Both the position numbers and the translations under genes were made by a program. A model generated the notes under the pieces. That model saw only the letters and a program-made list of their open reading frames with translations. It had not been told where the DNA came from and searched no databases. Below are positions 46,975 to 48,475 of a stretch of 64,000 nt of DNA, piece after piece; within the stretch, counting starts at the first letter, position 1; each line of letters begins with the position of its first letter. The stretch is from a virus, in IMG/VR virus record IMGVR_UViG_3300020179_001470, positions 1 through 64,000 of that record. One strand, 5' to 3'.

Positions 46975-48405
46975 ATGCCAATAATCACAAGAAAAATCAA
47001 ATTGATTGCGGTTGGTGAAACCAGCAAGGACAAAACCGCATCGTACAACTATGTTAAAAGGATTGCATCCGATTTAACTCAGGTGGGTAATGAAGTTATT
47101 CGTCTTCACGTTTGTAATCAATATGAATTGGATAGATTAAAATCATCCATGAACATATCCAAGGGTGATGCAATCAAGATTTTTCAAGAACAGATTGGTA
47201 CATCAGTTCAGAACAGTGGTTATCAAATGTTAACCAAGTTTCCATATATTGCTTCAGATATTAGAACAAACTTCAATCAGAAGATATTCAAAACCATTAA
47301 GGAAAACTTTCACGACATCATGAACAGCAAGATGTCGGTACCATCATTTAGGAAGACATCCATATCCATTCCGTTCAGTGGTGTAAAGGCGGGTGAATGT
47401 GTATTATTTGTTGATGATGATGATGAACATATGTTTAACTTTCCTTTATCATCATCGGAAAAAAGTATTCATAAGGAAATTAAATTCAGATTACATTATG
47501 GTAGGGACCCCAGTAACAATCGTGTCATTGTAAATAGGATTTTGGATGGGACTTATAAGATGAACGGGAGTTCCATTCAGATTGACGATAACGATTTGTA
47601 CTTGTTGTTGACCTGTGATATTCCTGTAAATGTATCCAATAATATGGACCCCAATAAGGTAATGGGAATTGATTTGGGTATTAACCGACCGGTATCAATT
47701 TATATTGATGGGGAGAAACGTCAACCATCACAAATTCAATTGGGTGAGAAGATTCAATCTGAAAGGATGAGGTTCTACAAACAACGTAGAGCACTTCAAC
47801 AATCCATGAAGTTTGCCAAGGGTGGACACGGAAGAAAGAGAAAGATGTTGGGGATGGAAAAACTAAGGGAAAAGGAATCCAATTGGGCTACTCTTATGAA
47901 TCACAACATCAGTAGGGAGGTTATTAATATTGCGCAACAATATAATGTGGGCATTATTAAGATGGAGGATTTAACCGGTATAACCACGAACAAGAATGAT
48001 TATTTTTTAAAATCGTGGGCATACTACCAACTTCAGACCGACATTGAATATAAAGCGAAGATGGTTGGAATTCAAATTCTGTGGGTAAATCCAAAAGACA
48101 CATCCATTACATGTCCAACTTGTAAGAATGTGAATAAGGAGAACAGAAATGATAAGGATAAAACCAAGTTCTCTTGTGTTAATATAGAATGTGATGATTT
48201 TGGTAAACTAAAGGATGCTGATATCACCGCAGCACACAATATTACTTATTCTGAAGGTTCTGATGTGAAAGGTAAGAGTAAGAAAGGTAGATTATTAAAA
48301 GGTATTCAAAAGAAACAAGACATTTTCATCACCACAAGTGATGGGGTTGGTTGTACAACCCATAGTGATTCCTTGTATAAACAGGAGGAGGTAATCTCGG
48401 AGTAA
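46975..48405 (+). CDS. Compact type V effector (Cas12f/TnpB-like RNA-guided nuclease), 476 aa
   Basis: RuvC-I GIDLG, GGHGRKRK, RuvC-II MEDL, Zn ribbon CPTC...CVNIEC, RuvC-III DADITAAHNI; adjacent to the array. Confidence 0.9.
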   Translation: MPIITRKIKLIAVGETSKDKTASYNYVKRIASDLTQVGNEVIRLHVCNQYELDRLKSSMNISKGDAIKIFQEQIGTSVQNSGYQMLTKFPYIASDIRTNFNQKIFKTIKENFHDIMNSKMSVPSFRKTSISIPFSGVKAGECVLFVDDDDEHMFNFPLSSSEKSIHKEIKFRLHYGRDPSNNRVIVNRILDGTYKMNGSSIQIDDNDLYLLLTCDIPVNVSNNMDPNKVMGIDLGINRPVSIYIDGEKRQPSQIQLGEKIQSERMRFYKQRRALQQSMKFAKGGHGRKRKMLGMEKLREKESNWATLMNHNISREVINIAQQYNVGIIKMEDLTGITTNKNDYFLKSWAYYQLQTDIEYKAKMVGIQILWVNPKDTSITCPTCKNVNKENRNDKDKTKFSCVNIECDDFGKLKDADITAAHNITYSEGSDVKGKSKKGRLLKGIQKKQDIFITTSDGVGCTTHSDSLYKQEEVISE

Positions 48406-48475
48406 TGGACTCACTCACTAAGTACTTTTCAAAGGTGTATACAACTAGTAGAATGTCAAATGATGATAACGGAAG
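48324..48475 (+). ncRNA. Putative reRNA/omegaRNA-like natural single-guide RNA overlapping the nuclease stop codon
   Basis: Scaffold 48324-48445 ends in AAAGGTGTATACAAC, identical to the repeat's last 15 nt; putative guide TAGTAGAATGTCAAATGATG... follows. The 3' end is approximate. Confidence 0.8.

What the first reader, a model, noticed from the sequence alone, without database searches (positions are those of the whole stretch)
48324..48475. Natural single-guide RNA embedded in the nuclease C-terminal coding sequence
Seen: hairpin CATCAC/GTGATG; hairpin GGGTTG-GTTGTA-CAACCC; outer stem TAGTGA/TCACTA enclosing TCCTTG/CAGGA; then GTACTTT-TCA-AAGGTGT, a fused anti-repeat:repeat hairpin, leaving ATACAAC free to pair with the GTTGTA loop as a pseudoknot. 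The last roughly 26 codons (FITTSDGVGCTTHSDSLYKQEEVISE) look like read-through of RNA structure. The putative guide TAGTAGAATGTCAAATGATG had no match I could find in the window. Inference: a hard-wired guide against a competitor or an empty-site allele.
Basis: partly seen in the sequence, partly recalled or inferred. Interest (0 to 1): 0.85.

Follow-up and report, generated by a model that had tools for sequence, protein, structure and literature searches.

The report
Built-in guide RNA of phage Cas12f
The last 80 bases of a small phage nuclease gene also encode a ready-made guide RNA, and its guide matches a gene of another giant phage; this arrangement is already known, but here it sits halfway between a transposon RNA and a CRISPR array.

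Summary
Window 48320-48445 is a structured guide-RNA scaffold that overlaps the last 27 codons of a 476-aa Cas12f/TnpB-like nuclease (46975-48405). It is fused in cis to the 3' half of a CRISPR repeat and then to a unique guide.

It is a paralogue of a tracrRNA-like copy (45966-46083) that heads an upstream array of 11 full repeats plus one half repeat. A covariance model found 21 such scaffolds in the window plus 14 related loci. 96.7% of pair cells are paired, against 33-49% in slid controls, and 13 of 20 pairs show compensatory changes.

The coding tail looks like read-through of the RNA:
- It occurs only in the closest clade.
- It is predicted disordered.
- Its synonymous sites are frozen (18 of 20 codons, against 111 of 278 in the gene body).

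Relatives show that this is the head unit of a second, downstream array. That array has 2-3 units in the three closest loci and one unit here.

The first 23 nt of the guide match exactly a probable tail gene of an unrelated huge phage. This supports the "competitor" reading and argues against transposon homing.

Expression, processing and PAM fit are untested. The known kinds it resembles are TnpB omega RNA, the Cas12n tail tracrRNA, TranC and dCas12f single guides, so I file it as a new variant. Earlier scan notes concern only this same genome.

The parts
45919..45926 (+). TACATTTG, a TAnnTTTG box (a Bacteroidota-type -7 promoter element; that consensus is recalled, not tested) ahead of the upstream scaffold
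   Evidence: such a box lies 29-47 nt before the model start in 11 of 17 scaffold copies that do not overlap a gene, and in 0 of the 4 copies that do. The background rate is 0.086 per 110 nt.
45966..46083 (+). Upstream tracrRNA-like scaffold copy, not fused to a repeat. It ends in the anti-repeat ATACCTTT followed by a T-run.
   Evidence: Covariance-model hit of 121.2 bits. Fold z-score -3.26, with 0 of 200 shuffles as good. Paralogue of 48339-48429 (family D16).
46141..46924 (+). CRISPR array: 11 full 36-nt repeats, one orphan 3' half repeat (46810-46828), and 12 spacers of 22-51 nt (most are 28-31 nt)
   Evidence: Population variants of the array occur in lake metagenome contigs (joint 46637 to 46903).
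46975..48405 (+). 476-aa Cas12f/TnpB-like RNA-guided nuclease. The RuvC residues D233, E331, D416 and the zinc-finger cysteines C380, C383, C401, C406 are invariant in all 30 aligned homologues.
   Evidence: Pfam PF07282 (6e-14) and PF01385. NCBIfam guided_TnpB 151.5 bits, cut-off 100. Closest solved structure is Al3Cas12f 9nzo, E = 1.1e-56. Alignment A2.
48322..48402 (+). Codons 450-476: the coding tail that overlaps the RNA scaffold
   Evidence: The tail is present in 8 of 30 aligned homologues, all at 69% identity or more. pLDDT is below 50 for residues 456-476. 18 of 20 degenerate, amino-acid-invariant codons are identical in four genes, against 111 of 278 in the gene body (Fisher p = 1.7e-5).
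48320..48432 (+). Downstream scaffold copy. It comprises hairpin 1 (48327-48343), stem 2 with the GTTGTA loop (48344-48361), and a junction stem (48364-48368 with 48415-48419) enclosing inner hairpins.
   Evidence: Covariance-model hit of 93.6 bits, E = 1.6e-21. Covariation. Hairpin 1 is found in 18 of 20 copies with varied stem sequences.
48422..48445 (+). Anti-repeat, TCA loop and the 3' half of the repeat fused into one hairpin (48422-48438). It is followed by TACAAC (48440-48445), which complements the stem-2 loop to form a pseudoknot.
   Evidence: family D3: 48427-48445 equals the repeat's last 19 nt with one mismatch; the loop and repeat-end hexamers pair 6 of 6 here, and the sixth pair covaries across loci.
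48446..48468 (+). Guide. These 23 nt are identical to a protospacer in another huge phage. 48469-48475 would complete a 30-nt spacer but do not match the target.
   Evidence: blastn 23 of 23. Nothing similar elsewhere in the window's own record.

Best explanation
Window 48320-48468 encodes a natural single-guide RNA for the phage's own Cas12f-like nuclease. The scaffold is a paralogue of the locus's tracrRNA. It is joined in cis, through a short anti-repeat:repeat hairpin and a loop-to-repeat pseudoknot, to one spacer.

This copy has no promoter box or leader of its own. It is therefore most likely carried on the 3' end of the nuclease mRNA and trimmed out after the protein binds it, as is known for TnpB omega RNA and the Cas12n tracrRNA.

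The RNP would then cut DNA matching the guide. The match lies in a probable tape-measure-like gene of an unrelated huge phage, so the unit would act as standing immunity against a co-infecting competitor.

Historically it is the head unit of a second, downstream tracr-plus-array module. More distant relatives have only that downstream layout. In this clade the module has shrunk, and the nuclease ORF has run on into it, producing a disordered 27-residue tail.

Shown: the sequence, the conserved and covarying structure, RNA-level constraint on the tail, variable guides beside a conserved scaffold, and the 23-nt foreign match.
Inferred: transcription, processing, binding, PAM compatibility and cleavage.
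For: Nuclease identity. Catalytic and zinc residues are invariant in 30 of 30 homologues.

Scaffold:
- 21 model hits in the window plus 14 related loci, and none in the 25 other sources searched.
- 96.7% of cells paired against 33-49% in slid controls; 13 of 20 pairs compensatory; 0 of 500 shuffles reach the score.
- Hairpin 1 present in 18 of 20 copies.
- Pseudoknot pair kept in 18 of 20 copies, with three different pair types.

RNA-level selection on this particular copy:
- Synonymous sites frozen, 18 of 20 against 111 of 278.
- In 14 tails the residue pair encoded at 48347:48358 is V/T 6 times, A/A 7 times, V/A once and A/T never. That reads as U-A, C-G, G.U and never C.A.
- The tail is disordered in the model.

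Guide behaves as a spacer: all four clade loci keep the scaffold but carry unrelated guides. In L013, L089 and L090 further repeat-spacer units follow. In the distant relatives L015, L091-L094 and L096 the scaffold is likewise fused to the first half repeat of the array.

Target:
- Exact match of guide nt 1-23 in L169 and L170.
- That phage shares nothing else with the window's record by blastn or tblastx.
- As controls, 0 of 4 other spacer or guide queries hit a foreign contig.
- The characterised MG119/Al3Cas12f relatives work best with spacers of 19-21 nt (PMC13186708, section 6 read).
Against: - No RNA data exist. No run on record as RNA holds the stretch.
- This copy alone does not fold better than shuffles (z = -1.39).
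- It lacks the TAnnTTTG box and the GTTCTTTGAA leader. The leader is carried by 13, and the box by 11, of the 17 non-overlapping copies.
- Its anti-repeat stem is only 7 pairs, 3 of them G.U.
- The PAM-side flank of the target ends in GATGT. The one protospacer-like context seen for spacer 1 ends in TTTTA, and the characterised relatives use T-rich PAMs. PAM fit is therefore doubtful.
- The last 7 nt of a 30-nt spacer do not match the target.
- The module is dispensable. 9 of 22 close homologue clusters end without the tail. A contig of a relative (173 differences over 46975-48334, about 87% identical) departs from the window at 48334, where the scaffold begins.
- None of the 12 upstream spacers hits the target phage record.
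Confidence: 0.65

Rival explanations
1. Decaying relic. The downstream copy is what is left of a second tracr-plus-array module and no longer yields a working guide RNA. Its conservation would reflect recent common descent and coding constraint on the tail.
For: - It has no promoter box or leader of its own.
- The array shrinks from 3 units to 1 across the clade.
- 9 of 22 close homologue clusters lack the tail.
- One relative's contig departs from the window at 48334.
- The anti-repeat stem is weak, and the fold z-score is -1.39.
- The target's PAM-side flank is not T-rich.
Against: - Synonymous sites in the tail are far more conserved than in the rest of the same genes (18 of 20 against 111 of 278). 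Coding constraint cannot explain this.
- Double changes keep pairs intact within the downstream copies. L090 has C-G at 48347:48358. Stem 4 is GAG/CUC in the window and L089 but GGG/CCC in L013 and L090.
- The tail is predicted disordered.
- The guide still has a perfect 23-nt foreign match.
Confidence: 0.2
2. The scaffold works in trans or as a regulator. It could be a second tracrRNA source released from the mRNA to serve the upstream array. Or it could be an autoregulatory natural sgRNA that represses a gene by partial pairing, as the long tracrRNA of S. pyogenes Cas9 does.
For: The scaffold is the same fold as the upstream tracrRNA. Natural single guides with regulatory roles are known for Cas9 (bioRxiv 10.1101/2020.05.21.102756, abstract seen in the listing) and for dCas12f (PMC12259090, passages).
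Against: The anti-repeat is already occupied in cis by the fused half repeat. No partial or seed match of the guide exists in the 72.9-kb record: the first 9-13 nt occur only at 48446, and the best 24-nt match has 7 mismatches. The RuvC triad is intact. Only 22% of the genome is in hand, so a target elsewhere is not excluded.
Confidence: 0.1
3. TnpB-style homing. The RNA is a transposon omega RNA whose guide is simply the DNA next to the element's right end, and it targets the empty site to restore the element.
For: The layout is the same as for TnpB: the scaffold overlaps the 3' end of the gene and the guide lies immediately 3'.
Against: - No Y1 transposase is found in the record.
- In 3 of the 4 clade loci the guide is followed by further repeats, so it is a spacer and not flanking DNA.
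- The match to the foreign phage is 23 nt with no similarity on either side, and none elsewhere by tblastx.
- Five related phage records lack the target region at the DNA level (best E = 0.013).
Confidence: 0.03

Closest known systems
TnpB omega RNA / reRNA of IS200/IS605 elements (Karvelis et al. 2021, PMC8612924; only the abstract was seen, in the listing)
   Same: A single long structured RNA overlaps the 3' end of the nuclease gene and carries the guide at its 3' end. The protein passes the NCBIfam guided_TnpB model.
   Different: There is no transposase and no sign of an IS. The guide follows half a CRISPR repeat and is a spacer matching foreign phage DNA, not flanking DNA. A CRISPR array and a separate tracrRNA coexist with it.
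Cas12n tracrRNA encoded in the unstructured C-terminal tail (as described in passages of bioRxiv 10.64898/2026.03.27.714800; the original Cas12n paper was not seen)
   Same: The guide-RNA scaffold lies inside codons for a dispensable, disordered C-terminal tail. Release from the mRNA is presumed.
   Different: Here the scaffold is fused in cis to a repeat and spacer, and a second, free tracrRNA copy exists upstream. The protein is closest to Cas12f. Membership in Cas12n was not tested.
TranC, transposon-CRISPR intermediates (Jin et al., Cell 2025). The paper is not in the library; I know it from recall and from citing passages.
   Same: A compact TnpB-derived nuclease is associated with both a CRISPR array plus tracrRNA and an unsplit reRNA-like guide. 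It illustrates the 'RNA splitting' route from omega RNA to tracrRNA plus crRNA.
   Different: The protein groups with Cas12f by sequence, and no TranC sequence was available to compare. Here both the split and the unsplit forms are physically present in one phage locus as paralogues.
Single chimeric gRNAs of nuclease-dead Cas12f homologues in Bacteroidetes (PMC12259090, passages)
   Same: Cas12f-lineage proteins use natural single guide RNAs that resemble omega RNAs. That paper notes loci where such gRNAs resemble repeats of nearby arrays.
   Different: Those proteins have lost RuvC residues and work with a sigma factor to activate transcription. This nuclease keeps D-E-D, is phage-encoded, and its guide matches another phage.
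Al3Cas12f / Cas12f-MG119 family (PMC13186708; passages and section 6 read; PDB 9nzo and 9nzr)
   Same: It is the closest solved relative (E = 1.1e-56). It also has a guide scaffold of about 130-156 nt, T-rich PAMs, and an optimal spacer of 19-21 nt.
   Different: Its tracrRNA was described from the intergenic sequence next to the array, not as a cis-fused unit or as overlapping the gene. Its Supplementary Data could not be opened.
CRISPR systems of huge phages (Al-Shayeb et al. 2020, PMC7162821, passages)
   Same: Those systems include new type V-F subtypes in huge phages. They usually lack Cas1, Cas2 and Cas4, have compact arrays, and carry spacers against structural genes of other phages.
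   Different: The passages I read do not describe a guide RNA embedded in the nuclease gene or arrays headed by a fused tracr-crRNA.

Membership tests
Cas12f (type V-F effector) | RuvC D-E-D triad and a zinc-finger TNB domain in a protein of 400-700 aa | tested here: met
   PF07282 and PF01385 hits. D233, E331, D416 and four cysteines are invariant in 30 of 30 homologues.
Cas12f (type V-F effector) | Sequence kinship with characterised Cas12f proteins | tested here: met
   9nzo and 9nzr (Al3Cas12f) E = 1.1e-56. OsCas12f, AsCas12f and Un1Cas12f score 1e-35 to 1e-18. The narrower NCBIfam Cas12f2 model is not passed (108 bits, cut-off 450).
Cas12f (type V-F effector) | An adjacent CRISPR array and a tracrRNA that pairs with the repeat at two sites (the anti-repeat, and a pseudoknot next to the guide). 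The two-site architecture is recalled from Cas12f structure papers. | tested here: met
   Array. Scaffold covariation. The loop-to-repeat-end pair is kept in 18 of 20 copies. All of this is computational.
Cas12f (type V-F effector) | Works as a homodimer on one guide RNA | not testable with these tools
   No complex prediction was run.
Cas12f (type V-F effector) | Adaptation genes cas1, cas2 and cas4 in the locus (present in some V-F loci) | tested here: not met
   No Cas1 or Cas2 match in the 72.9-kb record, which is 22% complete. Cas4 was not searched. This absence is usual for phage systems (PMC7162821).
TnpB / omega RNA of IS200/IS605 | The RNA scaffold overlaps the 3' end of the nuclease gene and the guide lies directly 3' of it | tested here: met
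TnpB / omega RNA of IS200/IS605 | Lies within an IS with TnpA or recognisable ends, and the guide is the DNA flanking the right end | tested here: not met
   No Y1 transposase in the record. Guides in relatives are followed by repeats. The guide matches foreign DNA for 23 nt only.
TranC (transposon-CRISPR intermediate) | The nuclease uses both CRISPR RNA with tracrRNA and an unsplit reRNA | not testable with these tools
   Both RNA genes are present and conserved, but their use needs an experiment. No TranC sequence was available to place the protein in a TranC clade.
Cas12n-type tail tracrRNA | The scaffold is encoded within an unstructured C-terminal tail | tested here: met
   pLDDT is below 50 for residues 456-476, and the tail is clade-specific. 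Whether the protein is a Cas12n was not tested.

The most novel reading that the evidence does not exclude
This huge-phage lineage may preserve living intermediates of how a CRISPR array is born from an omega RNA. In most of the family's modules the array is led by a cis-fused tracr-crRNA, a natural single guide, and further units look like tandem copies of its 3' hairpin plus guide. The free tracrRNA upstream would be a later duplicate that lost its fused half repeat. In the window's clade the fused unit rides on the nuclease mRNA itself. Protein and one ready guide are then made from a single transcript: an innate, array-independent shot at a specific competitor phage.
Probability: 0.3. Interest if true: 0.75.

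Novelty: new variant of a known kind. Interest (0 to 1): 0.55.

Why it matters
If the RNA is made and used, one natural locus would show side by side the unsplit (omega-RNA-like) and split (tracrRNA plus crRNA) guide forms of the same nuclease. That is the step proposed to have turned transposon nucleases into type V CRISPR systems. It would also be a natural example of a compact nuclease and its single guide made from one transcript. The guide's match to a probable tail gene of another huge phage adds a concrete case of phage-against-phage targeting. Practically, the family offers a Cas12f-like nuclease of about 450 aa with a naturally fused scaffold of about 125 nt.

Tried and rejected
- Rfam found nothing near the locus; the best hits were chance snoRNA or miRNA matches with E of 0.076 or worse.
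- Megablast of 46000-49500 against GenBank phages found no match. A sensitive blastn of the array found only a chance 26-nt hit to a Weissella phage (E = 0.2).
- A sigma-70 promoter and terminator scan gave counts no higher than shuffles.
- I tested whether a decayed second repeat follows the window's guide. Local alignments of 48466-48560 to four repeat variants are not better than shuffles (p = 0.10 to 0.78), so I dropped the idea.
- Homing or empty-site reading: rejected, as set out under the rivals.
- Autoregulation: no seed match in the record.
- Protospacer searches in IMG/VR found nothing foreign for window spacer 1 (24 nt), window spacer 2 (20 nt), the L013 fused guide (24 nt, which hit only itself) and the L089 fused guide (24 nt). 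A PAM therefore could not be derived.
- The upstream array has no convincing hit in the target phage record (best E = 0.25).
- The target ORFs have no PHROG hit and no significant Pfam hit. The tape-measure likeness rests on Atlas feature scores of 0.92-0.93 only, which is a lead.
- No RNA holder is listed among the public runs. The run laid as 'RNA?' (X20) is held as contigs only and cannot show expression.
- The scan of 185,579 species genomes found no relative above 32% identity. That scan rests on two peptide patterns, so absence is not proven.
- The Casdelta paper (PMC12721324; outline and abstract only) proved irrelevant.
- Literature searches turned up no description of a nuclease-active phage Cas12f whose arrays are headed by a cis-fused tracr-crRNA.
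Full report
WHAT IS THERE

The window is part of a 72,946-base IMG/VR virus record that CheckV rates 22% complete. That implies a huge phage. A relative's record of 310,691 bases is 93% complete.

The ORF 46975-48405 (+) encodes a 476-aa protein. It hits Pfam Cas12f1-like TNB (6e-14) and OrfB_IS605. It passes NCBIfam guided_TnpB (151.5 bits, cut-off 100) but not the narrower Cas12f2 model (108 bits against 450). Its best solved relatives are the two Al3Cas12f entries 9nzo and 9nzr (E = 1.1e-56), ahead of other Cas12f structures. 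D233, E331, D416 and four zinc-finger cysteines are invariant in 30 of 30 aligned homologues.

Directly upstream lies a CRISPR array (46141-46924). It has 11 full 36-nt repeats, one orphan 3' half repeat and 12 spacers. Upstream of the array lies a structured, tracrRNA-like copy (45966-46083). The finding's stretch is a second copy of that RNA: 78% identity by BLAST over 91 nt, or 70% by the ungapped repeat finder (family D16).

CHECK OF THE OBSERVATION

The stretch alone is not thermodynamically unusual (z = -1.39), whereas the upstream copy is (z = -3.26). The two copies fold into the same architecture.

IS THE STRUCTURE REAL?

The protein has 256 homologues at E of 1e-10 or better, many on contigs of 250-340 kb. 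Scans of viral and metagenome contigs gave 14 loci with relatives of 39-85% identity.

An alignment of 18 scaffold copies gave a consensus of 20 pairs, 13 of them with compensatory changes. On that structure:
- 96.7% of 359 cells are standard pairs, against 33-49% when partners are slid by 1-3 columns.
- 0 of 500 shuffles reach the observed covariation score.

A covariance model then found 21 copies in the window plus 14 loci. It found none in the 25 other sources searched, which were more distant TnpB loci and the target phage (40 of about 170 held sources were given).

A hairpin abutting stem 2 is present in 18 of 20 copies with varied stem sequences.

The proposed pseudoknot is supported. 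Loop position 6 pairs with repeat position -6 in 18 of 20 copies: A:T 14 times, G:C 3 times (L012 twice, L095) and T:A once (L096). L010 and L011 are mismatched.

IS THE CODING TAIL READ-THROUGH OF RNA?

- The tail is present in the 8 aligned proteins of 69% identity or more. It is absent from the 22 more distant ones, which stop about 25 residues earlier.
- AlphaFold2 gives a mean pLDDT of 82 for the protein but below 50 for residues 456-476.
- Across the four clade genes (window, L013, L089, L090), 18 of 20 degenerate codons with an invariant residue are identical in the tail. The figure is 111 of 278 in the body (Fisher p = 1.7e-5).
- In 14 tails, the residues encoded over pair 48347:48358 are V/T 6 times, A/A 7 times, V/A once and A/T never. 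That reads as U-A, C-G, G.U and never C.A.

So selection acts on the RNA.

WHAT THE RELATIVES SAY ABOUT ITS NATURE

In L015, L091, L092, L093, L095 and L096 the only scaffold lies downstream of the gene and does not overlap it. L094 also has downstream scaffolds, but its upstream side is not on the contig. In all of these loci except L095 the scaffold is fused through a loop to a first half repeat and spacer, after which full repeats follow. In L095 the first full repeat follows directly.

Other layouts occur too:
- L012 has a scaffold plus array on both sides of the gene.
- L010/L014 and L011 have one only upstream.
- The window's clade has both. In that clade the downstream copy overlaps the ORF.

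After the fused unit, the downstream module carries two further units in L089, one or two in L090 and L013, and none in the window. No remnant of a repeat is detectable after the window's guide. The four fused guides are unrelated to each other.

The 4 overlapping copies have neither the TAnnTTTG box nor the GTTCTTTGAA leader. These stand before 11 and 13, respectively, of the 17 other copies. The overlapping copies would therefore have to come from the nuclease transcript. The calls do not settle where that transcript starts.

The 'natural single guide' is thus the head unit of a shrunken second array. That the downstream layout is ancestral is my inference from identities, not from a rooted tree.

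THE GUIDE HAS A TARGET

The 20-mer at 48446-48465 occurs in two IMG/VR contigs, L169 and L170. The two are 99.5% identical to each other. The match is 23 of 23 nt, from guide position 1.

It lies near the 3' end of a 570-aa ORF that is followed by a 1577-aa ORF. The 570-aa protein resembles tape-measure or minor-tail clusters by Atlas features only (0.92-0.93). Pfam and PHROGs give nothing significant.

The target record is 105,971 bases and 34% complete, so it is another huge phage. It shares nothing else with the window's record by blastn or tblastx and has no homologue of the nuclease in the part held. Five relatives of the window's phage lack the target region at the DNA level.

As rough controls, 0 of 4 other spacer or guide queries (three of 24 nt, one of 20 nt) hit a foreign contig. 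I could not compute an expectation because the size of the collection in bases is not given.

The characterised MG119/Al3Cas12f relatives work best with spacers of 19-21 nt and use T-rich PAMs (PMC13186708, section 6).

RESULTS AGAINST A WORKING GUIDE

- The PAM-side flank of the target ends in GATGT. The one protospacer-like context seen for spacer 1 in lake contigs ends in TTTTA.
- The last 7 nt of a 30-nt spacer do not match the target.
- The anti-repeat hairpin is short and rich in G.U pairs.
- 9 of 22 close homologue clusters end without the tail.
- A contig of a relative (173 differences over 46975-48334, about 87% identical) leaves the window's sequence at 48334, where the scaffold begins.
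- No RNA evidence exists.
- Cas1, Cas2 and a Y1 transposase are absent from the record. For Cas1 and Cas2 this is usual in phage systems (PMC7162821, passages).

MECHANISM PROPOSED

The nuclease mRNA carries the scaffold, half repeat and guide at its 3' end. The protein binds and protects this part, and the rest is trimmed. The RNP then attacks the competitor phage's gene.

Shown: the sequence features, covariation, RNA-level constraint and the target match. Inferred: expression, processing, binding, PAM use and cleavage. Confidence is 0.65 for a working guide, and about 0.9 that it is a genuine guide-RNA scaffold paralogue.

COMPARISON WITH WHAT IS KNOWN

- RNA scaffolds that overlap the nuclease gene are known for TnpB (PMC8612924; abstract in the listing) and for Cas12n (passages of bioRxiv 10.64898/2026.03.27.714800).
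- Coexistence of a CRISPR array and a reRNA defines TranC. That paper is not in the library; I rely on recall and on citing passages.
- Single chimeric guides are known for dead Cas12f homologues (PMC12259090, passages).
- Phage type V-F systems that lack adaptation genes and aim at other phages' structural genes are known (PMC7162821, passages).

What I did not find in print (searches; supplements closed) is three things together. First, a nuclease-competent phage Cas12f whose arrays are headed by a cis-fused tracr-crRNA. Second, the fused unit embedded in the gene's end. Third, a free paralogous tracrRNA beside it. Hence: a new variant of a known kind, interest 0.55.

Earlier notes of this scan concern only this same genome. 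They agree with the anatomy found here, and none reported a target.

Noticed in passing
L096:4013-4036, against L024, L027, L054, L056, L061, L075, L131 and L156: From its third base on, the fused first guide of the 39%-identity relative L096 matches 19-22 nt (0-1 mismatch) of a conserved stretch about 20 nt upstream of where the tblastn match begins in unrelated TnpB-like genes at 8 other loci. This may be a phage Cas12f-like system aimed at an IS/TnpB family, or it may be chance; the first two guide bases do not match.
   Followed up: partly
window 46141-46924: Lake metagenome contigs hold variants of the array. Runs X18 and X15 have a form that skips 46637-46903, and other sequence follows repeat 4 at 46374. 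Spacer 1's sequence also appears in a non-repeat context in X19 and X15, which is a likely protospacer with a T-rich 5' flank.
   Followed up: partly
window 46810-46828: Inside the array there is an orphan 3' half repeat (the last 15 nt of the repeat, preceded by ACGG), followed by a normal-length spacer. This suggests that only the 3' half of the repeat is needed for a functional unit.
   Followed up: no
window 45937-45946 and the equivalent place in relatives: A conserved GTTCTTTGAA motif (up to 2 mismatches allowed) lies 2-29 nt before the scaffold model start in 13 of the 17 scaffold copies that do not overlap a gene. It could be the 5' leader of the tracrRNA or a promoter-proximal element.
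   Followed up: partly
L094:842-1660: One metagenome contig carries two complete scaffold-plus-array modules in tandem downstream of the nuclease gene. This shows that the whole module duplicates.
   Followed up: no
window 48708-49529: The next sizeable gene downstream is a DNA methyltransferase-like ORF of 273 aa with an SPPY-type motif, seen when reading the sequence. It was not analysed.
   Followed up: no
proteins P0009, P0010, P0014, P0016; P0011; P0012; P0019, P0021, P0023: Close homologues (74-90% identical) carry three or four other, unrelated C-terminal endings in place of the RNA-encoded tail. The gene's 3' end therefore looks like a recombination hot spot.
   Followed up: no
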